Source: Marsupella aquatica (lineage: Eukaryota > Plantae > Marchantiophyta). Taken from it: DNA of 64,000 nucleotides. A program made the translations under genes and the position numbers. Under the pieces are notes generated by a model. It had not been told where the DNA came from. It was given only the letters and a program-made list of their open reading frames with translations, and did no database searches. Of the stretch, positions 4,127-64,000 are shown piece by piece (within the stretch, counting starts at the first letter, position 1; every line of letters begins with the position of its first letter). The stretch is from positions 9,094,283 through 9,158,282 of the forward strand of contig OZ316892.1 in assembly GCA_973895155.1 (NCBI GenBank), given 5' to 3'.

Positions 4127-4128
4127 AT

Positions 4129-9778: not shown

Positions 9779-9779
9779 T

Positions 9780-25917: not shown

Positions 25918-26145
25918 GCGAAATCAGCCAATTGTTCATATCCAAACTTCCTGACTCCCGCGTACATAAACACCACCTTGGTCCGCAGACTCCATTGTCT
26001 ACTTTTCTCTCATTCTGTTTTCCTTGATTCTCTTAGCACCTCCTGTCGATCTCTTTGCTTTCTTACGCAGTGTAGTTTCTTCCCATTGTTAGACTTGGCA
26101 CACTTTGAAGTTCTGCTTCTCTGTAGAAACAGCGAAGACGTAGCT

Positions 26146-33000: not shown

Positions 33001-34084
33001 CAAGCCTTAATATTTCATATTAAGGTCAAAGCAAGCTTGAGGGGTAGTGAAAAATCTCTCATTTTTTCCACAAAAGACATAATTCTTGTCCATATTCCAT
33101 GAATATTTCATAATGACCAAAATGTGACATAGAATGGTTATGATTGCTTGGAATTTTTTTTAGGTTAGATATATATTGCATGCCAAGGCTTTGGAAGTGC
33201 GCACATTCAACATTATATATCCAGCCCTGGCTACCCAGAAACGTCACACCCTAGCTGTCTACTCCTGAAATGAAACTTATGCCAATACATTGGTATTTTA
33301 CTCTTTGCGACCAACTCTTGGTGTTAAAGAACAAGGCCTTGCTGGCCTCTTGGCTGGACTTCCCGTGAGTCCTACAAGCTAGAGTTTTGGGGCCCTGTCT
33401 CATTGAGAGGAGTTATGGTGCGCCACAGATTTTGACTCCAGGGCCTCCAAATATAGGGTTTTAGTTTTATTCCTTTTCCACATGTATAAAAAAATTCTCT
33501 TTGAGTTCAAAATTTTTAAAAGTGGAAAAGCTGGTGGAAAACCAGTGTTTCCAGAATTTTTTTCTATAGACCTACCTCTTATACAGCTTATACAAGATTT
33601 GCATACCCTCAACGTACATTCTTTCATCTGGTTCCTCACTCACAAGCCTTAACTTTTCAGCTCCGTTCACTCATGGGGTAGTCAAAGTTAAAATGGATTA
33701 AAGATTGGTGATCTGGTATCGATCAGCAGTTGCTTGCGCGGACAGCTGAACGCCTTGTTGGACTGCGCAGAACGTGGATTAGAGACTTGTGATCTGGCAT
33801 CGACCAGCTGTTGCTTGTGCGGACAGCTGAACGCCTTGTTCGACTGCTCAGAACGTGCGAAATCAGCCAATTGTTCATATCCAAACTTCCTGACTCCCGC
33901 GTACATAAACACCACCTTGGTCCGCAGACTCCATTGTCTACTTTTCTCTCATTTTGTTTTCCTTGATTCTCTTAGCACCTCCTGTCGATCTCTTTGCTTT
34001 CTTACGCAGTGTAGTTTCTTCCCATTGTTAGACTTGGCACACTTTGAAGTTCTGCTTCTCTGTAGAAACAGCGAAGACGTAGCT

Positions 34085-34739
34085 ATGGCGAAAACAGGAC
34101 TTGCATCTCTCTGCCTCCTCCTGGTCCTGGCAACCTTTGCAGTGTGTGCGCTTGGCCAGTCGCCCCGATATACCCTTGTTCACAACAGTGCTAGCTTCGA
34201 CATTACACATCGTAAACAGGTTATACACGGTGATGGCTCTGAAACAATTATCCCCTTTTCCACGCTGGCGCAGGGCACCACGGAACAGTTCCAAATTCCT
34301 GTGGACGTGTCATGTGTTCGCACTTCGTGAGTTAGCTTAACTTCTCATTTTGTTGTTGTTGTCCTTGTGTACTTATTTCACACCATTTACGAACATTCTA
34401 TGTAGCAAGTGACAGAGGGAGTCTAACTTTGCCTCAGAGTTAACACTATAATTAACACTATAACCCTTATTTTGCTGGTTTTTCTCGACGGTGCGATTTA
34501 CCGTGCACTCTATAGATCGACCGCTTGACATGTCCCTTAACTGGTGGCGCAGGTACTTCCAGCTCTCTGCCAAAAACCTCGGTCAGGTCGTCCTCGACTG
34601 GTGCGACATTGGCATGACAGTTGATTGTTTGCCAGAATGTTTCTGGATAATCGATGACACCGGATTCTCGGTTGCAAATTCTAAATCTGCTATTCTGCAA
34701 TTTGTAGCTGCTTGGAAGACGATGGATGAGCACGTTTAG
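34085..34739 (+). CDS. Second paralog of the small secreted SPH-like protein, 142 aa; exons 34085-34326 and 34553-34739
   Basis: Same exon lengths (242 + 187 nt) and splice sites as the 26146 copy, with a shorter intron. Confidence 0.72.
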
Positions 34740-43655: not shown

Positions 43656-44692
43656 TCAAGATAATCTAGACCCAAATCTCATGCTCCTCCACCCCGCAGA
43701 ATTCATTGAGCAAGTAAATCTAGACCCTGATGGGTCATATTTCATATTGCGATTGCAGAAATTGAGAGGCTTTATATTCCAGAACTTCGTGGTGAGGTCC
43801 CTACACCTCAGGACTTCTGAAAGAAATCCCCAATGATTGTCTCTGTAGGGTCCTGTATACTGATCTCCAATTAATGTTTTTGCAAGGTCGTTGATTGCCT
43901 CCTCCGTCAATTCCTCCATTGGTGGTAATTGTTGCACTTCATTCTTGACATCCCAAGGAATTTTGTCCGCTTTGACATCCAAGACTGAATGGATAACAGA
44001 ATGAACCCATACCATACTACCCCATCGCTCTGTCAACAACGCATAAATGGCAACTTGTTGATCTCTGTCCGATAAAACATTTATCATAGACCACTTTGGA
44101 TGATTGATAAAAAGGTAGTGCTAAAGATTGAAGGCATGATACAATTTCCTGAGCAGAGGCCACAGTATTTCTGGAAAGAATGTATCATCCGTGGAGTGAT
44201 GCGAAAATGAGGAAGGAAACAACCCACAATTCTCTGGATTTGCAAACCCCTTCATTGGAGTGTCATCAAGAAGGAGTGTATTAGTTTCATCGTATAATCC
44301 ACCATAACGTTTCCAAACAACCCTCAAATCCTTCAAATGAATATTTGCCTTCCCATCGGTAATGTCAAGCCTCTGGATTCCAGTATCGAATGTATCTTCT
44401 TGTGTGAGAATAAACTTGAATTGCTCTTGCTCTTCTTGACTGAAGATCAAATGAATCATTTCATTCGTCCTGGGTTTCCTTGCACAAGTCCAAATGGCAA
44501 CATCAAATATTAACAAAAAAGCTGCGATTAAGAACTCGTGAAGATGGGACGTTGCTCAACATACATAAAGTTAAACCCTCCATGTCTCCCCGAGTGGACA
44601 CCCTTGACACTTGTCGCACTACGGCGCGGTCCGGAACTTGGCGTTTTGACAGAATCCCAACATATTTTGTTGAGGTCAAGAATAAATAGCTT
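43656..44692 (-). pseudogene. FCP1/NIF-family (HAD-like CTD phosphatase-type) domain protein, disrupted
   Basis: KLFILDLNK (cf. KLLVLDLNG), then after a frameshift FDVAIWTCA and TLLLDDTPMKGFANPENCGLFP (cf. LLIDDSPYKA..NP....FP). An in-frame stop at 44121-44123 reads on into ORF 43656..44087. Confidence 0.75.
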
Positions 44693-45004
44693 CCATCAGA
44701 TCGGACCATGATGAAGTGGAGGCAAGGGTCCTGCAAACAAAAAAAACCAATGTTAGAATTGTGGGAGATAAAACAGAGGAATGCTCGAGACGATCTCAAG
44801 CATCACAAGTGAATGAACAACAGTCAATGTCATCATACTTGTTGTTGGTTGAAGGCCAGTAGTTGAAGAAATCTTAGGACATCTTCGAAGATTATTGTCG
44901 ACGCACTCCATAACTGGCAAGGGCCCGCCTATTTCTGTGAAGGTAGACATAATAATTTAGACGGCTGAATTTTAGGACTGTTCAAACTAACTTGGGTTTC
45001 AACC

Positions 45005-48000
45005 TCATGTGCTGAAAGACCCAAATTCATCTAGAAGGTTATCTCCTAGTTGGTTTTGGATGTCCAAATTTATCCCTCCAGGAAGGGTCTCAACAAGAGC
45101 TGGTTCAGACCAAACTGGCACTAATTTGAACTTATCCTTCCTATACTTTCTAGATCGAATAATCTTCTCAGACTGCTCTATACTGACTTGTTGACCTTTC
45201 GACGGTCCATCAGTCCAAACATAATGAGTAGCACTTGCTTTGAGTGATTTGTAACCAGTTCTACCAATTTTAGTCCCCGGTTTCCTAACAAAAGGGAGAA
45301 TTACTGGGCTTCCAGTAGAAGAATCTGTGAAAACAAGCTTATTCTCTGAAGCGCAAAACATTTGGTCCAAGGGAGAGGACAATGCACCTGCCTCGTCCTG
45401 AGGGGGAGTATGGGAGCGACTAGCTTTCTTAGTAGAGAGAATCTCATATAGTTGAGGAGGGCTTGGAATTGGTTGACTAACTGCGTCCTGCAAGGTGGAT
45501 TCCTAGCCAATGTTCATCCAAGGTTGAAGAGTGTTGTTCACATTGTGCGTCCCCAAGGCCACCCGATGAAGGAACACCTGGAAGGTCGAGATCATCTCGA
45601 GCATCATTTCCAAATTCAGGCAGTATTTCACCCTCCTCTTCCATGTAGCTTGGGATTTTTGGGCCCTCCGTTTTGCGATGCTCTACATTCTCCGCAAATA
45701 CTTCCTCAAAAATACTGGTTTCCACCGGAGCTATGTCTGAGGCCGCCTCTTCTATAAGAACGAGGGGACCGGCAATAATTTCTTGAGATGCTAACGACTC
45801 TGTGGGTGGTACATATAAAACCTGCTTGTTGTCATGGAGGAGCTGAGCAAAGGCTTCTATGCATTCCATCTCTTGGGCTGTGTCCAAATACACAAAACAA
45901 TCCCAACCAAGAATGACACAAGCTTTCAATGTCTGTCCTCCAGAGAAGAAATCCAACATTGTGTGACCTGGGCCGGAGAAATAATCAATAAGACGCTTTG
46001 TCATTCGCAAAGGCTTTGTTCTCGGGTTTACAAAGCCACCCCGCCGACCGACCATCTCATAAGATGGGGTCATCTTCTCCAAAACTTTGACATCAACAAT
46101 ACATTCATCGAGCTTATCTTTCCCCTTTGATTGGTCTTTGTTGTTCCCAGTAGGGGCCTTCAAAGACAAGATTGTGAAGTCTTTGTCCCACTTCTCACTG
46201 TAGTTCCAAAACGCATAAAAGTCATCAAAGAAAATTTGGGACCAGTTTGGTTCCTCTTCACAACAAATTCCCCCAAAGATGATTGAGTCTCGGGCTCCAA
46301 TGAGAAAATCTCCCTCCTCCTTGGGCAGGTGATCACGGTAGTAACTCCCGTACTCCAGCTTCGTGTGGACTTTCTTCTCATGACAAATCTTTTCAAAGGC
46401 ACTCTGAATCTGGCCTATCAATGGGCCTTGACGGACAAAAAAGATTACCAAGAGCTCAGTCAAGTTCGCCATCTGCAAACAATACTCCAACAAGACAAAA
46501 AAATTGGCATCTGTCCATTGCTGTTGTCGAAGATGACCAAAATTGACAATGGAAAGTGAGCATGTCCTTTGCACCGAGTCAACAATCTCAGGCTTCATTG
46601 TCCTCATCAAATTATCGCTAAAAAATGTGCGATAAGGAGTATCCTCCATTGAAAGGCATCCCGCCAAATACCTTACAATATATCTGCTCAAGCCTAACAA
46701 TGAGACTTTGCGGAAATGGGTCTTTTGGCCTATTTCTTTTTAGGAGGTTGGAAATCTAAACCTCTCCAGCAAGTTGTCTAAGTTTGGGCAACTCACCACA
46801 ATCCATAAATGCAGACAAATATTGAGTTAGCTCAAACCAAGTGAGTGAATTGGCAAACCGATCCGGATACTTCAAAACGAAGTACTCCACAATTTTTGCC
46901 CTCAGCTTGGTCATGACTTTGAAAGTACGAGCCATATCACTCATTGATTGAACATCAGATTTGTTGGTTGGGTCTTTCTTCAATAAAACCTTCTGATGTT
47001 GAACGGCAATAAAAACTTTTAGAATGTCGTCAATACTCAGGTCTCCTTCAAAGCATCTAAACAATGCCGGCGTAATCATTTTTGTTGTCCAGGATTTCCC
47101 ATTTATTTTTGAACCTAACTCCCCTAGACCATCCGAAAGAAGTCCCTTGACCCAATCGATGCACATTTGTCTCCAAGACTAGAAGAGGTTCTCTTCCGAA
47201 AAAAGCAACCAAAAACTATTCCTCACATTGGATTTTCCAGTCGTTATTTTGGCCAAGGCCATAAAATCCTGATCCAAACAGTACAAAGAAAATCTGAGGC
47301 TGGAGACGATCTCGAGGTAGAATTAAGGAACTATGTTGAAATTTATGGGAGAAGACATGAAGATAAATCAAATACAAAAACTTGACCTCGAGGCTCGAGA
47401 CAATCTCGAGCTAGAAGTGGATTTGAGTTTGAATATACCTAGAACTTTTGATGATCCGTTAGTCTATTGGATCCAATCACGGGTCTCATTTGACGGCCAC
47501 ACTCGTCAAACTGTCGACGGGCATGGACCATAGTATCAAGAACACAGGACTCATACTCCATGGTCTTGTTAACAACATTTGCCCTTTGTGAGTGTTGAGC
47601 AAGTATTGTTCTTGGAGTTTTGTCCAAAAGAATTCGTGACTTTCGATACTACAGACTCTTGCAACCTCCTTCAACTTTGCATCGCTCTTAGCCCAACCTA
47701 TGATCCAAACAGCTGCATTTGCTGAGTGTTGTCCACTAATTGCAAGGAACTGCACCTTCTTATTCTTAACACCCCACTCAAACTCCTTTCGATCCTCAGG
47801 AGTATTCTCATAATGGACCAACTATGAACTCTCTCTTGAATACGGAATTAAATCCGCCACAGCTGGTACCATTCCAGGGTTTCTAACCATGGATTTTGCA
47901 ACCTCAATGGCATGGTCTTTATTGACATCCTATATACCAATACTGTAGAAGGTGAATCTATACTAGTAACAAGAATGTCAAAATTTTCATTCATGCCAAA

Positions 48001-48379
48001 TGTGTAATACTCCTCAATCTCCTTAAGAACTTTGGCTCCTTCTTTAACGCTCTTTTCTCCCAGAGCATCTCCTGGAGTTTTGTCATCATTGGTATGTGCA
48101 CTCACACCCAAGGAAGATGCCGGAATGAGATCTACCTTGGGTGGCGCGGAATTTTTTGGAGGTGGAGCCTTCTTCGCTTTGCTTTCGGGTTTGTCAACCC
48201 TCTTCCTCTTTTGAGACACCTTTGCTTCCTTTTTGTCCAAACCGGACGTCTTGTCTCCTACAGCTACGGATTTCAATTTACCTGTTTGTCTTCAATGAGA
48301 CAACACCCACTTTTTACAAGCATCCTCGTCAAATTCTCTGGCTCCAAACACAAAATCAGGGGATATGGATTCAAACTCC
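45005..48379 (-). pseudogene. ParB/sulfiredoxin-like domain fused to an N6A/N4C (beta-class) DNA methyltransferase-like domain with an acidic tail; disrupted and 5'-interrupted by the CACTA element
   Basis: Joined frames give YR-DVNKDHAIEVAKSMVRNPG...FLAISGQHS (GQHS at 47723-47734) and VNPRTKPLRMTKRLIDYFSGPGHTMLDFFSGGQTLKACVILG (~45900-46030; cf. HPT.KP..L...LI...S..GD.VLDPF.GSGTT..A....G). There are several TAG/TGA stops and frameshifts and a probable intron at ~47271-47438. Confidence 0.7.
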
Positions 48380-48680
48380 CACTAGTAGAAACCGGGGGGT
48401 ATTTAGACCCCATTAAACGACTATTCAGTACCGTATAGGACTTGGAAACGACTGGGAAGGACTCTAGTCCTTTATAGGACTGCGAGTCGTATGTTTTGTT
48501 ACTATAATCAACTGAGTCCTTTATAGAACTGGTTTATAAGTCGTTTAATAGACTGGATTTTCAGTCTATTTTAGTCTTTGTGTGGGTAGCTTTGGTGAGT
48601 CGTTTTTAGTCTTTTATGGGCTGCGATGATGAGTCGTTGGGAACGACTAAAAAGGTTATGGAGGGTAGTCTTTAAATATA
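48380..48680. repeat. CACTA TIR and subterminal AACGACT/AGTCGTT repeats
   Basis: Multiple direct and inverted copies next to the TIR. The preceding trinucleotide TCC (48377-48379) is the predicted TSD. Confidence 0.85.
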
Positions 48681-49205
48681 CTTTGTGGGGTATGTATAAG
48701 TCTTTTATGTCAACTAGATATGAGTGATGAAGACCCCACTATACTACTTGGAATGAACCCACTCTTGTGCACAAATAACATATTGCATTCATGTTTTATT
48801 GTGTACTTGGAATGAACTCACTCTATAAGTTCACCATTCATCATGTTAACATTAGAATACATAGTTTCAGAAAGCCATCTTCTATACCATGTACACTAAT
48901 ATGAATTCACAGATTCAAACTTCATAGACTACAAAGAAGGTCACAAAGTATTCCTCTATACCATACACACTAATACAGAAATGATAAAATAGATTCAAGT
49001 ATCATAGACAATCACCATAGAGCCATAGTTTGACATCAATCACTTGTTTCATACATACAGAATTCAGAAATATCAATGTCACACACAACGTCTCCTTCAT
49101 CCTCTTTACCAAATGGAAAAATTGGTACAGATATTTCTTGGATCTTTCCAAGGCAATGTCAAAATGTGACACAATTCACATGATGCTATCTACACTTGCA
49201 TTCAG

Positions 49206-52200
49206 TCACTGCAGACTAACACACTCTGATGGCCAGAGCACAAGAGATCCTACTGCATCTGCAATTATTTCCTGAGGTGGATCATCGTCTCTATTCGGAA
49301 ATGGCAAATTACAATCAGATACAATCACTGTAGTCAACAACACTACTACATGGTCATCCGGGACCACTTTGCCATGGAATTTTGCATGATCCGGTCGCAA
49401 AATGCCTGTACCCACACATACCTGCGAGTCATCCTCCCATGATAGAAGATTATGGACTGATCACCCTATTCATTAAAAGTGTATTTTATTTTGTTCACTT
49501 TTAGGCCTCGAAATGTACACTTTTTGGTCTCTAAATGTACACTTTTTAACCCCAAAAGGTATATTATAGTACAATACTCTACACCTAAATAGTCAATTGT
49601 AAACTTGAGAGAGAAAAAATGATCTTTACTAGAAGGAGTCTCATCCTAGTTCATTTATAAAAGATGAACATGGTGATATGTCTGATGGCCATCACCTTTA
49701 TTTCTTGCCCAAATGTTTACTTTTTGAAAGCCAAATGTACACTTTCTATTGCCCAAATGTTCACAAATTGAATAATAATTCACTTTTAATGAATAGATTG
49801 ATACTGGCTCTGCTGTGGCTATCACCTCCACCTTACCCTGGCTGTTTTTCTTGGCTTTCCTGGGTGGCTTATACATGACATTATTCATACCTTGGTTGCG
49901 AGTCATGACTTTGGCACGAGTGTTTTGTGCTGGTGATCGAGAATTGGCTACACTCTTCTTCAAAGAATCTGCATCCATATTTGACACTTCTGATTGTGTA
50001 GCAGGATTTCCCTGCGACATCATCTCAGTATCTGCCAACATTGTACTTGCTTCAATTGAAGCATCTACAATCTTACTTGCATCCAATGTTGCTCCCAAGT
50101 TTCGACGTCGCTTCACCCTACTCCCACTTGGTTGAGAGTCTATCAACTCTGCATCAACTACAATTCAGTGTCATGTCCAACATAAGTCAATCACTCATCA
50201 CATGTGCTAAATGTACATGTCACCAACCACAAAGTTGTCACTATCTCCTTACCATTATGAACAGCCTTCTTCCCCTTCTTTGCCATTGCCATATGCTCCA
50301 TGTCTGCTTCTGTTGATCAATAAACACACCACAATATTCAGGTTGAATCTATTAACCACTGAATTGTTGCTCAACATTCATATAGAGGAATTTAAAGCAT
50401 CAGCTTACCTGATACCTCCTTGGCTATGGTCACTGAGGCACTGGGCACATCTTCTTCATTATTGCTCTTTGAATCACCTGATACATCAATCATGATGTCA
50501 CTTCAGATCCCAGTTCATCCAACCAGTTCTTACAGAAAAGATTACCTCCAACCGGCTTAAGCTTCACAAAACTCCATGCACTTTTCAAATGTAATGTATT
50601 GGATCATAGCAGGTTACCTGTCTCAGCAACCTTCTTGCCCTTGTGCTTACTGATTACAGGGTCCTTCTCTGCCTCCACTCTTCCTGCATTCAAACCATTC
50701 ACTCAATTCATGAAAACTTACTTCTAACATTTGAACATAGGACACAATGAACAATGGGCCGGTGTCATTTCCATACCTGTGTCAGATTTGCCAATTCCCT
50801 TTTTTGTTAACAAGGGCACACTTTGTACAATGTTGCCCTCATTGTTTGGTTGGGAACCACCCAATTTTTCAATCACAAGCTTGAAATTAGACTCCACTGA
50901 TGCAAGAAGGTTCGCTACAGATGCCTCCACAATATCCAAACGATCAGCCAATTTACTTTCCACTCGAGGGAGTCCACACTCTAATGACTTCAACCGTTCA
51001 CACATCTCTGTGAGAGTTGTAACAGTTCCCTGTCATAACACAGCTTACATATCTCAGATAACTGTCCCCAAGAACTGGTTGCTTACTTCCTACTACATTT
51101 CTTTCTGATGCTCAAGGCCAAATAGTCACAGAACATACAGAATTACAACATAATCACCTGTTTGGAAGTTACACTTGTCACCTCACTCCTTTGTTTCATG
51201 AACTCCTCTCTCACTTCTTGTGCTGATGGTTCTTCACCTGTCAATTTCTTCTGCAGTCCACATCAACATACATATGAATGAAACCAAGTGTTGATTGTCA
51301 ATGAAAATGTAATAATGGTAGCAAGATGATAAGTTTGAAGCTTACTATCAGGCATGTCACTGCCTTACCAATTGTTCTTTCACTGGAGCATAACTTCCTC
51401 TCCCAGCCTGTGAAAGGTGTTTCACTTTGCCTCGAGCATTTGACATCAGTTCACTCTTGCTCTGTCCAGCCTCCGACATGAACCCTTTGATTAACCGTGT
51501 CCATTGATCCAGTTCCAATGATGGGGGTGGTGGCATTCTCCTGTTAGAACCATTGTCTATCCACATCCTTTTCAACCTATGCCTCTCTTGTTTCAAAATC
51601 CTCATTGCATAATCTGATATGCAATCTTCAACTGGGCCCTTACCATCATTACCAACATACTCCCATCGTTCAAGAATGTCCTTGCAGATAGCAGCCCAAT
51701 CAGCTTTGTTCTGACTCCTAAACTCTGTAATGCTCAAATCTAACCAACGCAATACTTCTCCTCTTAGGTCAGAATGCCAACGGTTCTTACCATCACATGT
51801 GGGAGTTATCCAACCTTCGGAATTCACTTCTACTTTACCAAATTTGTTACTGTCTCCTGCCTTGGTACTCCCTGAAGCGCTACTAGGTGTCCCTCCACGG
51901 CCTGGTGTCCCCCCACGGCCTGGGGTCCCTCCACGGCCTGATCTCCCCCCACGGCCTGGATTGCATTGTCCAAACCTCCCTGGAGTCCCTGCACATTTAC
52001 AGGATCCATTTACAGTCACTTACATTAGGTAAGTATGAATCATAAATCCCGCTGCCAAATATACAGTGGACTTCAGAGCAATTCTGCAATGACCAAGTTA
52101 CCTCTCCCTTGGCGCATAGATGGTTCTGGACCACCTGTCCTATTGCTTTGTCTTGATGAATTAGGGGCGTTTCTCCCGCCTGTGAATGATTGCCTCCTAT

Positions 52201-52724
52201 CTGAACGTGGATGGCCTTTGTTGTTTTCGTGATTGTCCCAATCAGAGTCTGCATACCAACAGGTACATGCCACACTCATGGACCTATAAGATAAACTCTT
52301 TGCCCTAGCTACACATCAGATAAGTGCATATTGAGCTAAATCTCTACTACCATCACAAAATCACTAGCACAAGGCACTTACTTGTCCAATCATCCTCCTC
52401 ACCTTTCCATTGCCCTCTGTACCCGTCTCTACCACGCTCTGGGTGTTCATATTCATTCCATCCATCTTCTGCTCCATCATAGTCATCATCATAATTATTA
52501 GGCGTCCCTTGCCAATAACTCTGGCTCCTTCTAGGGTATGGATTATGTGATTTCTCTCTAGCTGCCCACCTACCTGGGACTTGATGAGGGCCCTGTGCAT
52601 CTTGCACAGGTGCATTTTTCTGTGAGCCCCCTGCATCTGGGTCTCCATCCATATCCAATCTTTCCTCTTCACCCCACTCTCCAAGCCCCATGTTTGTCTC
52701 CATGTCATCACCCTCTTCCCCCAT
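49206..52724 (-). pseudogene. CACTA ORF2 (TNP1/TnpA/Ptta-like), multi-exon, last exon split by a MITE
   Basis: Exon ~51367-52020 has PGRGGT repeats and PPPSLELDQWTRLI...KSELMSNARGKVKH...GRGSY. The terminal domain reads FHGKVVPDDHVVV...LPFP...IADAVGSLVLWP. Many small minus-strand GT-AG exons lie between them and were not fully reconstructed. Confidence 0.75.
49462..49800. mobile_element. 339-bp MITE with ~20-bp TIRs and apparent 2-bp AT TSD
   Basis: TIRs CACCCTATTCATTAAAAGTG / CACTTTTAATGAATAGATTG. Removing the element and one AT restores the ORF2 frame (EPVSVHNLLSWEDDSQVCVGTG). Confidence 0.85.
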
Positions 52725-52901
52725 AGCTTTTGCACAACACCCACAACCAAACAGGGAGAATCAGCACACTAAATTCAAAGTATCAATCAATTTCATGCAT
52801 ATCCAACTATCCTAAACATCATTCCAGGCAGCAATTCCCGTTATGTGACTCTGTGCAGGTAGTCATCCTCAACCTCATACTTGTCAATCGCCAGCTGTTG
52901 C

Positions 52902-55900
52902 CTATTGCAAATCATCAACCTCATCATATTCCATTTGCCCAGGTTCATCATATGTCTCTCTCAATGTTAAGGGGATGTAGTCAGTCTCTGCCCGAGTTGG
53001 AAGTACAGTCTCATGACTAGGATGCTCGAATGCAGCATGGTCATCCAAACTGAACTCTACTTTACTTCCATCCATCCGCCTGTTCCGTGCTTGGCTATGG
53101 CATACCACCCTCCAGCCATGTGACTCCTCCACATCTGCAAAGAAAGCCTGTTCAACTTGGCTAGGGAAACAAAAGGCTCAGACCATTCTGGTACTCTGGA
53201 CCTAAAATTGGCCAACAAGAACCCATCATGATCACGCTTCATGGTGGCCCTTGGTCTCTGCCACTCTGATTTCACCCATGATCCCTTCATCAATATCACT
53301 GGGACACTTGTGTTACCATAATTCAACACCCAAATATCGGTCAACTCCCCCACGTAACCCATCTTCATCCACCCCCTCTGTTCTTCAGAGGTTCTCTGCT
53401 CAAACACAGAAATCAAACCACAATCATATGATACACAATGGTCACCCTGCTCATCCCTCACTCGATAATGATTTCCATAAGCTCTCATCCGTTTGTAGGT
53501 CAGAATAGACAATCGTGGTGGCACAGATAGAAGATACAAATCCTTCTCCATATCTGGGTGATGTCTACTATGCTCTCGAATTGTCACCCGAATCCACTGC
53601 TCGAACTGTGGGAAGGGATCCTGCTGCCCAGAGTGTGCAGCTTTTTGCATATCATATTCCCTGCATTATGAGGTACAGGCATAGTTAGGTCTAAACAACA
53701 CATGACAACCTAAGATCACCCTTGGAACAGACAAGAAGCATCACAACAAAGGCAAGTCAATTCAATCACTCACCTCCACCATGGTTGCATAGGCTCTGTG
53801 TTTGCCAGCACATATGAATGAGCCTTGTCTCAAATCGCAACAGGCAGCTGAACAGCACGTCCCACACCTTCAACAACCTCGCCACTCACTCCATCATCTT
53901 CACCAGATTTCCAAACTCTTGTCATAGCTTCACCAGACCCAGCCATGTACTCTGTTAGGAATCCCAACGTCTCATCCTTAATGTACCCCAATGCCATGGA
54001 AGCCTCTGGCCTGTAGTATGTTCTCACATGACCTTTCAACAACTTCATGTATCGCTCCATAGGGTACATCCATCTGGTACTGACTGGCCCATACTGCCCT
54101 AGCTCTTCTACCACATGGATTAGGAGATGAGTCATAACATCAAAGAAAGCAGGGGGGAAGTATATCTCCAAGTCACAGAGGACATAAGCAGCATCCTGCT
54201 TCAACTGCTCCAATCCTTGGGGATCCCACACTTTCACACATATACGGCGAAATACATTGCACAGTCGAAGAATGACATTACGGACTGATTTCTGCATGAG
54301 ACCTCTGAGGCATAGGGGCAGAATGTGCTGCATCAACACATGGTAGTCATGTGTTTTCATACTGCCAAGTTTATTCTTTGTAATATGCTTCTTGAAGGCA
54401 CCAGCATAGCCAGAGGGCACTTTCAGACAGCTCAATCTATACAAGAATGTCTTCCATTCATCCTGTGTGCACACATAGGGAGCTTGGAACTTGAGAAGTA
54501 CATTGGGATTGCTTGCATGGGGCTTCAACCAAAGGTGAGGGCGAATCCCCTTCTGTTGCATATCAGCTCGAACTGCTCCTGTATCTTTCTCACCCGACAA
54601 GAACTTCAGCAAGCTCTCACAAATATTTTTCTCAATGTGCATGACGTCCACATTGTGTTTGCTGGACTCGAATTCCTGCACTCCACAAAGCAAAGAATTC
54701 AACAACAGAAACACTAATTAACCACATAGGAGGATTGTAACCAACATCAATCCACCATTGCTCCAATCTAAAATTGCAATCATACAGGGGCTGGAGGCTA
54801 AGTACATTACCCTCCAGTACTCCAACTCCAAGTCCATCAAGGTCTGTCTTTTCACACCGTGTTTCACCACTGGATCCTCAGGTTCTCGATCAGTGGCACT
54901 TCTCTTGTCCCAATCAGCCTTCCTGGCTGCCCACCTCAGGACTTGCTCTCTGGTGACCCTCTGTGGTGGGCCACGAAGCTCTGTTTTGTTGTTGAAGTGT
55001 GCAATTTGAGACCGTGTGTGCCTGTAAGGATGATCAACAGGCAGATACCTTCTATGCCCCTGAAATTTCATACTGTGCAGGGCATGCGACCACTCACTTG
55101 TCACATTTTTCCCACATGGTGTGCACCCCACATAGCCCTTTGTCACTCATCCAGATATGATGCCATGGCCTGGGTAATCTGCTATATCCAGCAAACAAAT
55201 TGCATGCAGTCTAAAGGGGCTGGGTCGAAGAAGCCCCTTCAGAACATCATGGGTTAACACCCCTTCTATCCACAAAGTCTTCCACTCTTCCACTGCTGGA
55301 GCCAACATGATATCTATGAATTGCTCGGTCACAGAAGCTGGTCTAGGGATTAACAGCACCATCATGACAAAAAACCTCTTTGTAGTCATCCATGGGGGAA
55401 GGTTGTAATTTAGCAGCGTAACCGGCCAACATGAATAACGGTTGTTTTTGTCTCCAAATGGGTTTACTCCATCCAGTGATAGACCAAATCGAAAGTTCCG
55501 CTTCTCTGCAGCAAACTGTGGCCACCTCTCATCAACAAATTTCCAATGGTTGGAATCTCCAATGTGACGTTGCAGGCCATCACTGCTCTTGTTATCAGGA
55601 GTCCATGTCATCAGCTTGGAAATGGCAGGGCATCTAAACAGACGTTGTAGTCTAGGAATGAGAGGAAAATGACGAAGAACCTTGGCAGGGTGTGTACATT
55701 TCCCTACATTCTTGTACCTGTGCTTACCACAATGAGGGCATGTCAATTTATCTGCATGCTCTTTGCGAAAGAGAACACACCCATCAGGGCATGCGTCAAT
55801 AGACACATAGTTCAGCCCAAGGTTAGACATCAATTTCCTAGCCTCGTACATATTTTTTGGAATTGAATTACCATCTGGTAACACATTTCGGCGCAGGAAG

Positions 55901-56601
55901 GTCAACAACTCTGTCACAAATATATTGGGAACATTGTGATTGCCATAGATGTTCAACAACAACACGACAAAACCCAGCTTGGAGCAGTTCGACCCCTCGT
56001 AGATAGGAATGCAAGCTTCTTTGATGTGTTTTGGGCCCCCAAACACCCACTCCCTCTCTGCTGCACCTTCCCCAATGTCAAAGTCAGGTTGAGCTTGGCC
56101 GTCGCCAGTGTGTGGCTGCGGTTCATTGTCCTCTTCTGATTCCACTGTGTCGTAAAAAGCATCAAGGTCTTCAAAAATCTCTTGAACCATTCTTGGGACA
56201 TCCATCCCACCGTCCTCAGTGACTGCCTCTGCATCTCCATCTTGGTCATCCACGTTCTCATGTTGGACCCCAGGACCATCCTCTGCACAGTCTATGTCCT
56301 GCTCTACGTAGTCTCTACGCCTAGCTGTATTAGAATCCACAAAGTCAGCTCTCCACTCTTCATCAGAGGAGTCTTCTTTTGCTGGTACATTCCAAACCCT
56401 CCACCGAGGGTGCCTTTCATGCTGCAGCAGGTGAAGGTGCACAGTGTTCAAACTCAACGACTTGAATCCTTGGCACTGTGTGCATGGGCATCTCATCCTC
56501 CTACTCCTACCTTGGGCGGCCCGGGCTTGTTCACGCATCCACAATTTAGAATCATGATGCCTAATCCTAAATGGGTTGTGAAGAGGCAACCTTGGAGCCA
56601 T
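52902..56601 (-). pseudogene. CACTA transposase TNP2/TnpD (Transposase_21 with DUF4218/DUF4216-like regions), disrupted
   Basis: Motifs CPCTQC, IDACPDGCVLF, LRHFPLIPRLQRLF, LSLDGVNPF, YNLPPW, DYPG, HNVDVMHIEKN, MKTHDYH and RWMYPMERYMK. Introns at ~54676-54810 and ~53661-53773. Premature TGA at 55147 and 53830, and a frameshift at ~53165. Confidence 0.95.
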
Positions 56602-56927
56602 CACTATACACACGCACTCAGCACCCTGTCATTTTATTATGCAAGTGAAAAATACACTTCCTGTTAAGGATTTCACCCCCGACTGTACTTGCCAAAATAC
56701 GTAACGTTCCAAAAAAACAAAAAAACAAAAAATATAGGTGCCTGAGTCATGTACCTATTCTCAAGTGAATGAGACAAAATTCCTAAATTTTTGAGGGTGT
56801 CAACTCCTCCGCTGTCCTCACATGTACTGCCTCTGCACGTACATCCATGACCATATCAGAGTCCAATCATGTATAGTCATAGACACAGGTGCCAGGTGCG
56901 AGACCGGTGTGAGATGTCCTCATCTTA

Positions 56928-57461
56928 CTACCACATCAAATACGGATACCAATCCTGTTGTCGATGCCACTCAGCCCTGAGGTACTCAGGCATGTACATT
57001 AAGTCATCAAGGTCTAAACCCTGCTCATGCCATGGTGGTCTTCGATCCGTGCCTACAAGCAGTGGCAGCAGTGCCCTCCATGGTGCACATGTTGCTACCA
57101 AGTCCCTCCATTGGGTACTAATTAGTCTATATTTGCAGATATCTTGTGCGCCAGACACCACAAGAACCCTCGGCCAGACATGTGTAAGAACTATATCATC
57201 TGCCAAATCAGGCAACAAGGAACCACCTACAGCATCGTGCTTGTCTAACTCATCTGCTGAAAAGTAAATGTCCTCTTCCGATTGTGCATCCTCATTCACC
57301 ACAGCATTCACAACACATCCAAGGTCTGCAGGCATTATCTCGGATGGAGCTACACTCTGTCTGGTTACCAATCCACACAAGTAAGCCCAAGCAGTAGCCA
57401 TGCACGATGCAACCCGTAGGAGGACCCTACATAGGGCCTGACGGTCTGGAAGAGGCAGCAT
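56928..57461 (-). CDS. CACTA cargo: small F-box-like protein
   Basis: SLLPDLADDIVLTHVWPRV...ICKYRLISTQWRDLV fits the F-box consensus LP.LP.di...I..rl......r.vsk.Wr.lv. The frame is open; the start codon is uncertain. Confidence 0.65.
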   Translation of the reverse strand: MLPLPDRQALCRVLLRVASCMATAWAYLCGLVTRQSVAPSEIMPADLGCVVNAVVNEDAQSEEDIYFSADELDKHDAVGGSLLPDLADDIVLTHVWPRVLVVSGAQDICKYRLISTQWRDLVATCAPWRALLPLLVGTDRRPPWHEQGLDLDDLMYMPEYLRAEWHRQQDWYPYLMW

Positions 57462-57637
57462 ACCCACCAAAGTCTTCAGCCAAACAGAGCCCAGCAAGTA
57501 GATTCACAGTCACACCCCACGCAGCAGGAAACAACAATCACTTCAACTGCGACCAACCATGACAAGATGAGTTAGTTCAAGGATCACATTTATTACAAAA
57601 TTGTGTTTTATACAAAAATATGAGGGACTCCTACTCC

Positions 57638-58486
57638 TCACTCTCTCCCACCTTTGCTAAGCATACATCTCCGCTGAATCTTGGAGGGCCAGGCCTCAAA
57701 AATATCAAAGTCCCAAGCATTCTGTCGCTTCCCTCTAGCTGCTGATTCCAGAAGCCAATCAGGGGAAAGCACCCAAAGATTGTTGTTCATGACAAAATCA
57801 CGCACTGTTGTCTTAAAGAATTTTCTGCATATTTTCATGTATGACAGACCTACAACATGAGTGGAGGTTTCTATTAGACTCTCCTCCACTGTCCCACCTA
57901 GCTCAACAACTATAGACTTGTACAGTCTGCACTTAGTCTCCCCAATTCCTTCTTCTGCAAATACCACACTGAACCCCTTCATAATGGTATTTCTCTCCTT
58001 GCCATGCTCATTCAATATAGCATCTGCACGCATAGGATGGTGTCCTATGTTGACAACAGGTCCATATTGGACAGAAGCAAAGTTGGGTTTCTCTGCCGCT
58101 GCTTCATAGGCTTCCTTTTCAGCCAAAGCCTCTGCAGTGGCCTCCTCACTCTCCCACAACTCATATTGCTCAGTACTCTGTACACACCTATGTTTAACAG
58201 AATCGGTCAGCCAAGAGACTTCAACTACTTTTAGACCTTGGTTGGTAATGGCAGAATCAATGAAGGACCATGACCACTTGTTCATCACATCCAGCCATGT
58301 CCCCGCAACAACATGTGTAGTCTGTGGAGTGATGTCCTTGACTTCAGTCCCATGGAACTCTGAGAATCGTTTTTGTACGATTGGCCAACTCACTTGGGTG
58401 AACCCATAGTGGCCAGGAATCAAAATGGCTTTGATTCCAGCCAACAGAGGCGGGTGGTCAACCTTTGTACGTTTCCTAGAGGCCAT
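57638..58486 (-). CDS. CACTA cargo: intronless tandem-BRCT protein (~282 aa)
   Basis: Two repeats: TTHVVA...VVEVSWLTDSV and ELGGTVEESLIETSTHVV...VLSPDWLLES. Basic N-terminus MASRKRTK. ORF is intact. Confidence 0.85.
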   Translation of the reverse strand: MASRKRTKVDHPPLLAGIKAILIPGHYGFTQVSWPIVQKRFSEFHGTEVKDITPQTTHVVAGTWLDVMNKWSWSFIDSAITNQGLKVVEVSWLTDSVKHRCVQSTEQYELWESEEATAEALAEKEAYEAAAEKPNFASVQYGPVVNIGHHPMRADAILNEHGKERNTIMKGFSVVFAEEGIGETKCRLYKSIVVELGGTVEESLIETSTHVVGLSYMKICRKFFKTTVRDFVMNNNLWVLSPDWLLESAARGKRQNAWDFDIFEAWPSKIQRRCMLSKGGRE

Positions 58487-59078
58487 GTACACACGGGCCA
58501 CCTAATCACTGCAGACCGGAAGATAATGCGTTCACCTGATAATCGGAGGGCCCTTAAAATGCTGCGTTTATAACTTGGTCCAGTCCAGTCGTCTGGTGAG
58601 TCTCTGCTCCGATTCCAAACGGGAGAAATATTGGGACAAACGTACTAGACACCTGCAAGCATGCACCTCATAGTTTGAATATGTGCCTTCACAATATTGA
58701 AGGTGACAAGTGCAATTGTTTTGTGATGCCACATACAGATGTTGTAAATGGGCAGACATTCAATGAGAATACAAAATGTTGGTACACTTTAAGGGAATTC
58801 TCGCAAATTAAATAGCCTTGTAACTTATATGCTCATAATGAGAAGTCCTGATTTAATTTAAGCAGTGTCATGTAAGTCGTGATCAAAATGATTGCAGAGT
58901 TAAAAAAGTTCCTAGAAGGCTTAAGGGCAGTTTTTGAAGGCATGTACCCAGGAACAAGTAATGAACTTAGGGTACTTGTTGCCTAAGCATCCTCTCCTAC
59001 AGAGGTCCTTCTTCTCAAAATTGGAATGTCTGCAATCTCCAAGGTATCCACATCAGGTGCACTATGCATGTATATTAT

Positions 59079-59699
59079 TCAGGTTCTAAGCCAAGAAATG
59101 TGATCTCTCATGGGAGTGTGCAAAGTAGGATCTATGGCATGGCGATGACAATAGAAGATCCATCGATCAACACCATGTGCAGAGTGATCATAGATGTGTC
59201 TGTCACAAGCATAGCCTTCTGCTTGACGCTCCTTCAAACAATGAAAGTGCCACATGGTGGGACACCTAACACAGTGGACTATGTCCACCCAGAAATCTTC
59301 ATCGTGCTGACCACATGCCTTGCACTTCTGAAGTGGGCAAGCTGTGGCAAGATCGGGCAAACATGAAAAACAAAAGAACCTCACACAATATCTGTCAGGG
59401 CATTTCCTAACAAGTGGTGGAGCATCAACAGAGCCCTCGTAAGACCCCAACTTCCCACAATGTGCACACTTAGCCTGCTTCTCCAAACAATCAGTGCACA
59501 TCTAGCCTCCCTGGTGTGTTGACGGGAGGCCCACCCCTGGACAGTTGTTTTCTGCAGCAAGGTCAGACTCCGGGTTGAGGTGGAAATGCCTCATGCAAGG
59601 GCCCTCACATATGGCTAAGCCACTACCATCTGGCCCAACTACACCTGTGTTGCTCACCTCTGTCCCCCGCTTCTTGGCTCGGATTTTAGGGCGTGCCAT
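59079..59699 (-). pseudogene. CACTA cargo: stand-alone EDM2-type composite PHD finger protein (~206 aa, one TAG at 59502-59504)
   Basis: CEGPCMRHFH..C..CTDC..CAHCGKLGS..C....C..FF...C..CPLQKCKAC..CVRCPTMWHFHCL..IFYCHRHAIDPTLHTPMRDHI. This parallels the EDM2 PHD region, including its IYC..HEID..L.TP.RDH tail. Confidence 0.8.
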
Positions 59700-60368
59700 G
59701 CCTACGCATGAGACAGATAGTACAATTTAGCAGAGTGCACGGACAATACAATTTAGTGCAGTGTACAAAAAGTACAGTGTAGCATATAGACTAGAGTGGC
59801 AATTGCTACTGCAATGAAATGTTCACACACATGTGCAGAGTAGACATACTTTTTGGTTTGTTGAGCCCACACTAAAAACTGATCCCCTCGTACAATAGCT
59901 CCACCTACACCTCAATTTTGTGGCTATGATTCACCAAAGGAGATCTGCAACAAGATTTAATGCATTTGAATCACATATAACAGTCGTGACATGTAAAACA
60001 GGCATTTTTTGAACAGGATTGGTATCAAGCACTGTGATCAGGGTTGTAATTTATACATCCTAAATAGGCTATGATAGTGAATGAGACAAATAAGTTAGGC
60101 AGAAATCACTTTTTCCAGGTTATCACATGGCCCATTAATTCCAGTCTTTGAAAGGAGACTTTTAAGTGAGCTTGCTAGCCTCTTAAATTAGGATATTGTA
60201 CTTAGTGCAGCCATAATAGGATAAGTTATGTACTGTTGACCCTAAACCCTGGACCCAAAATAGGTCATAATTCAAAATCTTAAGTAAATATCCTCTCTGT
60301 TCAAGTCAAAGTGTTAAGTTATAGGTCAATGGTCTCTGGTTTGTGCATGCGGTGTGACAAGTGGTCCT

Positions 60369-60818
60369 CTAGAGCGTGTGATCCAAACATGTGTAGACAC
60401 CAAAGTGACCGGTGGTGGGGTCTGGGAGGGCAGGACAAGTGACATCGCCAGGCACACTGCAGGATGGCGAGTGGTTCCAGATGATACATTGTGCTCTGTG
60501 AAAAAACCGACATCCAAGAGAACGGTCATCCAACTCTAGGCCAGAAGCCCTACAGGCAGGACAGTCATATTGGCAACTGTGCACACACCCTTGGGCCCTA
60601 ATTTGTGGCGGGTCATGTATGAGAGACAGAAATACCAAGGATGTTGGGAAGGGTGGAGAAGCAGGTACAGGCCGGCTGTAGTTGTTCCTGGCAACAACTG
60701 GGTACTCAAAGTACCATGCAGACTGGGCTGGAAGGATCCCAAGTCTGACATACTCAAGGCGCAACATCTCTGCCTTGCGTGCAAGCCGCACATGTTCAGC
60801 GTTGCGGGTCCTCACCAT
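60369..60818 (-). CDS. CACTA cargo: small Cys/His-rich ORF of unknown function
   Basis: 149-aa ORF starting at ATG (MVRTR...), with CVHSCQYDCPAC and further Cys/His residues. Same strand and spacing as the neighbouring cargo genes; no family recognised. Confidence 0.4.
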   Translation of the reverse strand: MVRTRNAEHVRLARKAEMLRLEYVRLGILPAQSAWYFEYPVVARNNYSRPVPASPPFPTSLVFLSLIHDPPQIRAQGCVHSCQYDCPACRASGLELDDRSLGCRFFHRAQCIIWNHSPSCSVPGDVTCPALPDPTTGHFGVYTCLDHTL

Positions 60819-63800
60819 AAGTGTTGCTTTTGTGGAGATGTCGTGTGTTCACGTCCTCTGATAAGCACCTTCGATCAGCAAGGTGAGCAGGAGCTGTACT
60901 TGCCTCACCAACAGCAACCAACCTTAAATTATCAGTTCCCACTCACTGTGTCATTCCATTGGTTCCAGCTAGGGGTCACAGTGTAAACATAGCATGAAAC
61001 ACTCCTAATCAACTTGCTTACAAACTACAATATCCAGAAAGAGTGAAAGTCTCACCCTCCAGTGAGCAGCAGAGAGGTAGTTCACTAGATGTGTTGATGT
61101 GCAGTTAAACCTCCACTATTGCTTACTTCTGGTGTATGCTGCTCAGAAGAAGACATATTAGTAGCAGCAAATTGCAAATAATGGCCATAAGCAAACCGTG
61201 AGAGTTTGCAGAATGCTACGACAAATCCATCACAGCAGTGCTCCACAGGAATGAAACCAAGCAAAATTTGGTGACCTCGGCCAATGACAAGGCCAATGTA
61301 GTGAACAATCCTTGACCGATCAGGATATGGATTGGAATTACAATTAGTCAGCTCTTCTTCTTTGTTTTCTAACTCTGGGGGAAATGAGCATGACCAGGGA
61401 ATTCTTTGAGAAATAGAAGTGCACAGGGAAAATGAAATTGGCTCATTCAGCTGCGCAAGACCGGCCATTGCAGCAAACTTGGACAGTTGTTCCGCAATAC
61501 ATAAAATACCCTGACTTACATGCAATCGATACAATCTGCTTCTGTTGGCTGTCCTACAGCTCACGGTAGTGCCGTTGGGATAGGGTAAGTGAATATTGCC
61601 ATAGCTGAAGCACATTGAGCTTGCAGCAAGAAGTGAAGGAGCATGGCCAAAAGCAGAAAAGACAGACAGGTTTTACAAGAAGAAACTAACAACCGCCAAT
61701 CTGCTCAAATCCGCTGCATAGATCAAACCCTCCAAACTACATAGCCCTCCTTTGAAAACAATCCAATGTGCTTTGGCTGGTGGATGACAAGGACTGGGAG
61801 AAGAGGAAACGTCTACACAATCAATCCAAATGACGGGACACAGAGACCAGGCACAGAGAGGATTTGTGCTTAGACAAAAACCACAAATTGTAGCATGGGC
61901 GCCATAGCATTGGGCGGCAATGGGAAGAATTACATCAAATGAGTGGACAGAGAATGAACAGTCCGGTTATAGGCAAACAGCGACTGATGCCCTGATGCAA
62001 TGAAACACGCATTGACATAGCGGAGGGACATAAAAACTACATAAGCCAACTTACTGACCTTTTAAGGCCCACAATTTCAAGGGGAGGGACAAAGACAGCA
62101 ATAACAGACGCAGAGACAAAGCTGTACTCTGTCAATTGAGTAGGCAAGTGGGTGGGTGAAGATCAACAACCAATGTAGCAGCGCAACCAGAGTAGCAACA
62201 AAGAAGCAGGTTGCCCTCAGTCTCCTATTTTTCAAGCAGCTCGTGCTCGCGGTCAATCTCCTATTCTGCAAGCAGCTCACACTCGTCCCTCTTGTTCTGC
62301 AAGCAGGTCATTCTTGTCGGCGATGGTGCAAGCTGTCCTCCTAAACTCTGACACTCAAAATGAAAAGACCAAGCACCTCCAATCTGTTTGATCCCTTCCG
62401 CAAGCAGCCGAGCGGCAGACGATAATGTAGGGATCAAGAACCAAGTGCCAGGCGGACATTGCACAAAATGAGGACCGGGGACAGAGACAAAATCTACCGA
62501 AATCTACCAAAATCTACTTCTTGGGGTCCAGCCCACGGATGGACATCATGCAAGGTGGTCAAAAATGGTAAGTGCAATTGTTGGAGAGCTGTACTCGCGA
62601 TTACTAACGGTGCATCCACAAAACGCGTCATCAAGTTGTCAGTGCGGCCACAACAATTTTGACAGTCTCAGGATCACAGGTCCACAAACAAGTTGCAAAT
62701 GAAGACACACAACGTCCAGGAGGGAAAGTCCGCAACACTAACCCTTTGTAAAGCCCCCGAGCTTACCTTCTAGCTGCCGACGCAAAGAGAAAACCTACTT
62801 GGACACTGAAGCAACCCTAAACTCAAAGTCTCACTTTAGCGCAACAACTCCTGGATTGGATTCAGCTAGCTCAGGCTCAATGAAGCATGTCGCCTCGGGC
62901 TCTCCGGATCCTCCCAAGGCAGCAAACAAGTTAGGGTCCACGGTCCTTGTACCTTCACCGCACCGTTGTGTCCTTCCCAATGCCTCCTCTGTAGTTGCGT
63001 CTTGTCTGCAACTCTACAGCTCCCCGTGTTGCTCTGCCGCACTTAGTTATATTCCAACGCCCGATCGTGACCAAAAAGAGTTTTCTCCTGCTGGACAGCA
63101 CTAGGCATTTGTTCAATCTCTTGATCACGCGTAAGCAGCTACAGGTATGAATCACTCAGTTGGCAGCTCAATACGCTTACAGCAAGAGGGCGCAATAGGT
63201 AGAAGCTCGCGCTACCTAGACCAGCACAAGGACAAAGCATTAACATTGAAACTGTACCATGGAGCTGGAGAAAACCACAGAGTAATTGAAGCCTAACAAT
63301 ACCCTTCTTAGCTCCCGACTCCAAACTCTCGGCTCCCAGTTTGCAAGAACAAGCACTATGAAAATATGGATTCCCACATTGACTGTGTCCGCAGAACAGA
63401 TGCAACCCGCATGCAACTTCACCAGCTCAACGGCAGCTTGACAACTGAAGGACCTCCCAATGAGCCTCACGGCCTCCCGATGCTCGTTATGGGTGCAGCA
63501 AAAGGGTCTATACCACAACTGTGACCGAGATTGTCACCCAAAACCTTGAAGAAACCCCAACCTCCGACTCCTCAAACTCTGACAAGCTCCTCACGAACGT
63601 TGCAGCAGCCACAACCTTCTTCGCCCTACCAGCCAAAAACTAAATGTCCCTAAAGGAGATCGAGCAGGAATGCAGGTCTATGAGTAGACTGCAAGCGCAA
63701 GGTTAGATCACTGCAACTGCCTGAACACTGCTCCTCGAGAGCATAAACAAGCACATAACGCGCGGGAAGTTCACTCTGCAATGGTCGCAAAAAGTGGGCA

Positions 63801-64000
63801 ACACTGAAAGGAAAACCCTACGTAAAACCCCGAACACTCCACCCCTCACGTTCTAAGTTCAATGACAATGGCGAAAACTCCAAAGAGACTCCCAAAGTGA
63901 AGTTTAGTGCCTGAAACCGAATTAGGGGAAGCCACTCAGCCTTACCGTTTGAGTGAGCCGTTGAGTGTCACCCAAAGTGGGACAAAGCTACAAAGTGTTA

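What the first reader, a model, noticed from the sequence alone, without database searches (positions are those of the whole stretch)
56928..60818. CACTA transposon with a compact co-oriented cargo cassette: F-box + tandem BRCT + EDM2-type PHD + Cys-rich ORF
Seen: four short, apparently intronless ORFs, all on the transposase strand, packed directly upstream of TNP2 with gaps of ~0.15-0.7 kb. Three start with basic NLS-like N-termini. Established: CACTAs usually encode TnpD/TnpA (sometimes a ULP1 protease), and passively captured host fragments are typically truncated. Some Mutator-like TEs encode dedicated anti-silencing proteins (VANC). Inference: each ORF is trimmed to one interaction module (SCF adaptor, DNA-repair adaptor, heterochromatin reader), which suggests a selected TE-encoded host-manipulation toolkit rather than random capture.
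Basis: partly seen in the sequence, partly recalled or inferred. Interest (0 to 1): 0.85.

Follow-up and report, generated by a model that had tools for sequence, protein, structure and literature searches.

The report
Plant transposon carrying chromatin-adaptor mini-genes
A broken copy of a plant jumping gene carries, in front of its transposase, four small extra genes, one of them a stripped-down copy of the histone-binding module of the host protein EDM2, and the element likely keeps them to help it escape host silencing.

Summary
The four ORFs are real and lie on the transposase strand, 326 bp upstream of TnpD in a CACTA element (left end 48380; no partner end in the window). Two BRCT domains and an EDM2-type PHD cassette are confirmed. 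The F-box stays below Pfam's cut-off. The Cys-rich ORF has no family. The PHD gene starts at 59699, not 59501. This copy is dead: two stops and a frameshift in TnpD; a stop and a 22-aa deletion in the PHD gene. The cargo is repeated along with the transposase in runs labelled as three organisms, at like contig depth, and a diverged high-depth family in a fourth shares the PHD, F-box and BRCT stretches. Diverged open homologues exist for BRCT (61%), PHD (72-73%) and Cys-rich (54-56%). Stand-alone EDM2-type PHD proteins form one old clade (100/99) apart from host EDM2. They lack the acidic residue before PHD1 (0 of 12, against 115 of 122 host rows), so histone reading may have changed. Not shown: a contig bridging two ORFs, the right end, low dN/dS (small test not significant), expression, function. 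Verdict: retained accessory genes of a CACTA family; an anti-silencing role is plausible but inferred.

The parts
48380..48391 (+). Left terminal inverted repeat, begins CACTA; no partner in the window
48400..48700 (.). Subterminal short repeats (ACGACT/AAGACT/AGGACT type), the only such cluster in the window
   Evidence: 7 and 12 motifs in the 500-bp bins from 48001 and 48501; at most 3 per bin from 56501 to 64000
49209..52275 (-). TnpA-like multi-exon region; exon chain not worked out
   Evidence: Transposase_24 at 51357-51605, E 0.002, below cut-off; frames
52905..56601 (-). TnpD/TNP2 transposase, broken in this copy: TGA at 55147-55149 and 53830-53832, frameshift near 53166
   Evidence: Transposase_21 E 5e-40, DUF4218 E 1.9e-27; stop contexts; all four runs carry one more base at 53166
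56928..57461 (-). F-box-like ORF; only about 56928-57251 keeps its frame across copies
   Evidence: Pfam F-box E 0.06-0.1, below cut-off; 43-bp skip; diverged high-depth family in X6 aligns over the motif
57638..58486 (-). ORF with two BRCT domains and a basic N-terminus, 282 aa
   Evidence: Pfam BRCT E 4.4e-13, two stretches; homologue P0001 61% over 270 aa; Atlas hits for P0001 mostly BRCT, best 0.88
59079..59699 (-). Stand-alone EDM2-type PHD cassette gene, basic N-terminus; this copy has a stop at codon 66, a 22-aa deletion and a lost terminal stop
60369..60818 (-). Cys-rich ORF of no known family, basic helical N-terminus, 149 aa
   Evidence: homologues 54-56%; no Pfam or PDB hit; poor model
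60819..61825 (-). Upstream continuation of the repeat, with a 176-aa ORF (61085-61615) of unknown status
   Evidence: X1 depth about 1700 to 61825, then 600-1040; no Pfam hit under E 0.03

Best explanation
The four ORFs lie inside a multi-copy plant CACTA transposon and are likely accessory genes kept by selection on the element, with the stand-alone EDM2-type PHD protein predicted to dock on chromatin as an adaptor or decoy that would help the element be transcribed despite host silencing. Shown: position, domains, repetition together with the transposase, diverged open homologues of three ORFs, one old clade of stand-alone PHD proteins, and the decay of this copy. Inferred: one capture of the PHD cassette from an EDM2-like host gene, followed by loss of the flanking domains and a change at the PHD1 pocket; expression with the transposase; the BRCT pair likely recruiting or diverting double-strand-break repair factors at excision or insertion sites; the F-box-like protein possibly engaging the SCF ligase. 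The Cys-rich protein would be a metal-binding partner; no target can be named.
For: No TIR or subterminal cluster between TnpD and cargo. In X1 long near-identical contigs have about the same depth on TnpD (1912, 1817), F-box (1772), BRCT (1768) and PHD (1978). Median cargo/transposase-side depth ratios 1.6, 0.75, 0.75 in X1, X2, X5 (8 and 11 bins). A second lineage in X1 (depth 1290-2140) differs in BRCT, Cys-rich ORF and spacers; X6 holds a diverged high-depth family over PHD (bins 1140-1600), the F-box motif (3157 at 57111) and BRCT (105). BRCT stays open at 61% identity; 0 of 2000 neutral simulations did; 10 of 10 Trp invariant (p 0.008). PHD: 19 of 19 Cys invariant against 139 of 197 columns overall (p 0.001). 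Stand-alone PHD rows: 14 of 141 form one group, SH-aLRT 100; 11 of 43 in the careful tree, 100/99, stem 0.93. Long hits include named EDM2. EDM2 binds H3K9me2 chromatin at TEs and promotes full-length transcripts (PMC7529245, PMC7472560, passages). Transposon-encoded anti-silencing has precedent: VANC/KIU (PMC13317346), TET-carrying EnSpm (PMC12730594).
Against: No listed contig bridges two ORFs or TnpD and an ORF; the nearest stops 49 bp short (tables cut to 8 records a run). Contig depth is not copy number, the runs were found with a query holding both TnpD and cargo, and one may be the window's source. Right TIR not found; depth falls 2- to 20-fold right of 61.8 kb. Listed variants are not clearly biased to synonymous: 5 of 14 and 3 of 10 codons, overlapping sets. 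Open frames of PHD (P 0.12) and Cys-rich (P 0.06) homologues are not significant alone, and the database holds only called ORFs. No genomic context for any homologue, so their link to transposases is not shown. The acidic residue before PHD1 is absent in 12 of 12 stand-alone rows with the motif, so EDM2-like histone reading may be lost. F-box below cut-off, no homologue search run for it.
Confidence: 0.5

Rival explanations
1. The genes are kept by selection but serve target choice and repair, not anti-silencing: the PHD protein tethers the transposition complex to a chromatin state, and BRCT brings repair factors.
For: Same conservation data. The changed PHD1 pocket fits a new specificity. 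This copy sits in a TE-dense stretch, against another repeat. Chromodomain targeting in LTR elements is a recalled analogy.
Against: The PHD is a separate gene, not fused to the transposase. One insertion site says nothing about preference.
Confidence: 0.2
2. The cargo block is its own mobile unit or was added by a nested element, and is only linked to this CACTA in a recent burst.
For: No right TIR; no bridging contig; X1 depth about doubles at 59071-61274; X6 depth differs more than tenfold between PHD and BRCT.
Against: No repeat pair bounds the cargo. The extra depth fits the second lineage seen in BRCT, Cys-rich ORF and spacers. GC3 (0.45-0.53) and CpG loss (0.25-0.41) match TnpD.
Confidence: 0.15
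3. Passive capture of host fragments (Pack-CACTA type) that ride along neutrally or only camouflage the element from silencing.
For: Known mechanism and usual fate (PMC13317346, passages). DNA-level test not significant. F-box N-terminus not frame-conserved. Several stand-alone PHD rows look truncated or frameshifted.
Against: Stem of 0.93 changes per column from host EDM2 with zinc ligands kept; open BRCT at 61%; basic N-termini recur in homologues. Camouflage needs DNA similarity to the host gene, which so long a branch would have erased.
Confidence: 0.12

Closest known systems
CACTA/EnSpm elements (CMC superfamily; maize En/Spm recalled)
   Same: CACTA end, subterminal repeats, TnpD (Transposase_21 + DUF4218) followed by a TnpA-like region on one strand
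   Different: Four further same-strand ORFs upstream of TnpD; at least 13.4 kb long; right end not seen
EDM2 and its liverwort paralogues (PMC7529245, PMC7472560; proteins)
   Same: Whole PHD cassette down to the closing TP-x-RDH motif
   Different: About 220 aa against 690-1560 aa; no DNMT1-RFD N-terminus, nothing after the cassette, basic leader, no acidic residue before PHD1; own clade
VANDAL/VANC and KIU (Ulp1-carrying) MULEs (PMC13317346, PMC6446971, passages)
   Same: Plant DNA transposon with extra ORFs, one from a host domain; the model for anti-silencing
   Different: Other superfamily; VANC recognises short DNA motifs; no similarity to VANC or Ulp1 appeared in Pfam scans; function here untested
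TET/JBP-carrying fungal DNA transposons incl. EnSpm (PMC12730594, passages)
   Same: EnSpm-type element with a separate gene for a chromatin-acting protein
   Different: An enzyme in fungi; here non-catalytic interaction modules in a plant
Pack-CACTA (PMC13317346, passages)
   Same: CACTA element with host-derived sequence
   Different: This element has its own transposase genes, and the cargo is far diverged from host genes yet keeps its fold residues
Rehavkus elements with a PHD finger (PMC6446971, passages)
   Same: PHD finger on a DNA transposon
   Different: One finger inside the transposase, animals; here a separate EDM2-type multi-finger gene

Membership tests
CACTA/EnSpm transposon | Terminus beginning CACTA | tested here: met
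   48380
CACTA/EnSpm transposon | Matching second TIR | tested here: inconclusive
   none in 48500-64000, best 10 of 13; may lie beyond the window
CACTA/EnSpm transposon | 3-bp target site duplication | not testable with these tools
   needs the right end; no genome held
CACTA/EnSpm transposon | Subterminal repeats | tested here: met
CACTA/EnSpm transposon | TnpD transposase domains | tested here: met
   Transposase_21 E 5e-40, DUF4218 E 1.9e-27; broken in this copy
CACTA/EnSpm transposon | TnpA-like gene | tested here: inconclusive
   Transposase_24 E 0.002, 18.7 bits against cut-off 28.7
EDM2 family | EDM2/NSD-type PHD cassette | tested here: met
   profile hits named EDM2 at E 3e-19 and 5e-16 over positions 39-224; NSD2/3 in PDB E 5e-10
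EDM2 family | N-terminal RFD-like domain and long C-terminal part | tested here: not met
   RFD in 6 of 15 scanned rows, all long; none in the 3 short rows; protein ends with the cassette
EDM2 family | Acidic residue just before PHD1 Cys1 (role in histone H3 binding recalled from AIRE/BHC80) | tested here: not met
   115 of 122 host rows, 0 of 12 stand-alone rows; motif found in 122 of 138 and 12 of 17 rows
EDM2 family | Binding of H3K9me2 chromatin | not testable with these tools
   needs a binding assay
BRCT proteins | BRCT domain above Pfam cut-off | tested here: met
   49.7 bits against 21.3, two stretches
Phosphopeptide-binding tandem BRCT (BRCA1 type) | Packed pair with phospho-pocket | tested here: inconclusive
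   model failed, pLDDT 31; PDB hits weak: ligase IV E 0.006, BRCA1 E 0.05 on one domain only; long linker between the domains
F-box proteins | F-box motif above Pfam cut-off | tested here: not met
   13.8 bits against 20.5; no PDB hit to E 10; motif visible by eye and region kept in X6
F-box proteins | Skp1 binding | not tested
VANC-type anti-silencing factor | Induces hypomethylation of its own family in trans | not testable with these tools
   needs expression and methylome data
Pack-CACTA | Recently captured fragments close to host genes | tested here: not met
   stem 0.93 from host EDM2 rows; donors of the other ORFs not identified

The most novel reading that the evidence does not exclude
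An old lineage of plant CACTA transposons encodes a multi-gene counter-silencing kit: a miniature EDM2 mimic with a rewired histone pocket that hijacks or blocks the host ASI1-AIPP1-EDM2 read-through complex, plus a BRCT repair adaptor, an SCF adaptor and a new zinc protein, the CACTA counterpart of VANC but built from host chromatin modules.
Probability: 0.3. Interest if true: 0.85.

Novelty: new variant of a known kind. Interest (0 to 1): 0.62.

Why it matters
Known transposon counter-silencing factors in plants are few (VANC; transposases themselves). A transposon that keeps a cut-down copy of EDM2's histone-binding cassette, the host module that lets transcription pass through TE heterochromatin, would be a directly testable case of a mobile element turning a host tolerance pathway to its own use. 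The stand-alone clade also offers natural variants of an EDM2 PHD pocket. Nine literature searches listed no description of EDM2-type PHD or BRCT cargo on a CACTA element; Repbase and subscription journals were not searchable.

Tried and rejected
No genome held, so copies could not be collected. Two metagenome scans gave no locus (0 of 222 and 0 of 102 pattern hits confirmed). No RNA holder listed; this says nothing on expression. X8 and X10 (small shares) were laid and show only thin cover, depth mostly under 20; not used as evidence. Both structure predictions failed (pLDDT 31 and 42), so no fold search was run. The Atlas answered once (P0001; best 0.88, a lead only); PHD, F-box and Cys-rich queries got no answer. 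A recalled likeness of the BRCT domains to plant DNA polymerase lambda could not be confirmed (nearest: TdT BRCT E 0.42); the two domains are 23% alike; donor left open. A liverwort-paralogue donor for the PHD is neither shown nor rejected (p-AU 0.475), though liverwort proteins are the best-scoring full-cassette long hits. Splicing of each ORF to a shared leader: acceptor-like sites lie just before PHD and BRCT (scores 12, 13; background 90th percentile 12.5) but not Cys-rich or TnpD; not above chance overall. Two primary EDM2 papers were not held. No complex prediction was run. Earlier findings by place and sequence: none.
Full report
Observation. The four ORFs are present on the minus strand at the stated coordinates, and such packing is beyond chance (0 of 500 resampled sequences). 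They sit 326 bp upstream of TnpD, with gaps of 176, 592 and 669 bp. The element's left end is at 48380, with a cluster of subterminal repeats; no second TIR or such cluster lies anywhere to its right in the window. TnpD and a weak TnpA-like hit follow on the same strand. No genome is held, so the right end and the TSD stay unknown.

This copy is dead. TnpD has two in-frame stops and a frameshift at 53166, where all four laid runs have one more base; whether the stops are private was not shown. The PHD gene really starts at 59699. Its TAG at codon 66 is TGG in all covering contigs of X1, X2 and X5, and they stop at codon 205 like the homologues. It also lacks 22 aa with the first CxxC of PHD1. 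X1 loose ends at 59622 and 59630 read by eye as that missing stretch; whether the deletion is private to this copy is not resolved.

Other copies. 11 of 13 listed runs hold part of 54500-61000, four of them half or more of its words; kinds are mostly unrecorded. I laid six of the 13. In X1, long near-identical contigs have depths of 1768-1978 on TnpD, the spacer, F-box, BRCT and PHD. Cargo/transposase-side medians are 1.6, 0.75 and 0.75 in X1, X2, X5. X1 has a second lineage that differs in BRCT, the Cys-rich ORF and spacers; X6, labelled as a fourth organism, has a diverged high-depth family over PHD, the F-box motif and, at lower depth, BRCT. Limits: depth is not copy number, the query held both parts, the tables are cut, and no listed contig bridges two ORFs. 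Depth falls right of 61.8 kb, so the element is at least 13.4 kb and its upstream end varies or is interrupted here.

Selection. Word-index searches found 1 BRCT homologue (61%, 294 aa), 2 PHD homologues (72-73%) and 2 Cys-rich homologues (54-56%), all unnamed Logan proteins on contigs of 1-2.9 kb. None of 2000 neutral simulations kept the BRCT frame open at that distance; PHD and Cys-rich did so in 12% and 6%. All 19 PHD cysteines and all 10 BRCT tryptophans are invariant (p 0.001, 0.008), and 7 of 9 Cys in the Cys-rich ORF. The DNA-level test used only the listed rows (40 of 251, plus one): 5 of 14 and 3 of 10 codon changes were synonymous against 0.21-0.29 expected, not significant. So constraint on fold residues is shown; low dN/dS is not.

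The PHD gene. A profile search gave 238 hits, best 150 listed. The top seven are short proteins of 166-245 aa. Long hits include named EDM2 of Neltuma and Mangifera, a Ceratopteris protein and liverwort paralogues. In a quick tree of 141 rows (12 of 153 dropped for short cover or long span) 14 short rows form one group. A careful tree of 43 chosen rows gives 100/99 for 11 of them, with a stem of 0.93; the donor is unresolved, and long branches may attract. The clade ends right after the cassette, often has a basic leader, and has no acidic residue before PHD1 (0 of 12 against 115 of 122). That this residue contacts histone H3 is recalled from other PHD fingers. The genomic context of these relatives is unknown (searches found no locus).

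The other ORFs. Two BRCT domains are secure; a BRCA1-type phospho-reading pair and the donor are not. The F-box is below cut-off. Its first ~69 codons lose frame in copies with a 43-bp skip, while X6 keeps an equal-length, in-frame variant inside the motif (read by eye). The Cys-rich protein matches nothing (model poor).

Mechanism. EDM2 binds H3K9me2 chromatin at TEs and, with ASI1 and AIPP1, favours full-length transcripts (PMC7529245, PMC7472560, PMC4980392; passages); edm2 mutants alter TE silencing (PMC3632883; listing and passages). I infer that the element keeps the cassette as a chromatin adaptor or decoy that aids its own expression (0.5 for this reading; about 0.8 that the cargo is an integral, constrained part of the family). 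Rivals: target-site tethering (0.2), a separate linked unit (0.15), passive capture (0.12). The host is a land plant; a liverwort-like host is only suggested by hit scores.

Comparison. It is a CACTA element by left end, subterminal repeats and TnpD. It works, on my reading, like VANDAL/VANC-KIU (PMC13317346, PMC6446971; passages) or TET-carrying EnSpm (PMC12730594; passages), but is a member of neither. The PHD gene derives from the EDM2 family but fails its architecture test. PMC13547354 had no mention of PHD, BRCT or F-box in its main text; its supplements were not read. Earlier AI notes of PHD or RING cargo on other transposons (unchecked) suggest the theme recurs, which lowers the novelty of PHD cargo as such. 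Nine searches listed no description of this set.

Verdict. Real, family-wide and probably undescribed accessory genes on a plant CACTA element; the EDM2-derived mini-gene is the strongest part. New variant of a known kind; interest 0.62.

Noticed in passing
window 43656-48291, minus strand, abutting the left TIR: A decayed multi-ORF repeat with an N6/N4 DNA methylase-like ORF (45477-46649; Pfam E 2.7e-4; M.RsrI E 0.045), a NIF/FCP1 phosphatase-like piece (44121-44459, E 4e-6) and an ISGQHS motif near 47740 that recalls ParB/DGQHR domains (no Pfam hit). High depth in X1 and X2 at 47500-48379 marks it as a repeat. A plant repeat carrying a bacterial-type DNA methylase deserves its own look.
   Followed up: partly
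window 3722-10077: Copia-type LTR retrotransposon with LTRs 100% identical over 300 nt, so very young, though its pol frame is split.
   Followed up: no
window 49456-49802: 347-bp segment absent from the main contigs of X1, X2 and X5, with 22-bp tandem units and a 26-bp inverted pair: likely a small element inserted in this copy.
   Followed up: no
window 61085-61615, minus strand: A fifth same-strand ORF of 176 aa; no Pfam hit under E 0.03; the second X1 lineage appears to diverge at 61000. Not searched for homologues.
   Followed up: partly
window 61826-64000: Lower-depth repeat segment (X1 600-1040, X2 7000-15000), T-rich on the minus strand, no ORF over 120 aa: 5' leader of some copies or a nested element.
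   Followed up: partly
window 17300-35400: Two families of kilobase-scale direct repeats (three copies near 17.9-19.6, 21.4-22.5, 30.5-31.6 kb; two near 24.8-27.7 and 33.2-35.4 kb), 85-99% alike: probably solo or nested LTRs.
   Followed up: no
proteins P0036, P0039, P0060, P0103, P0105, P0130, P0133, P0030, P0046, P0051, P0053, P0153: A second set of short (255-386 aa) EDM2-PHD proteins nested among host EDM2 rows, suggesting a separate origin of stand-alone forms; hosts and context not checked.
   Followed up: no
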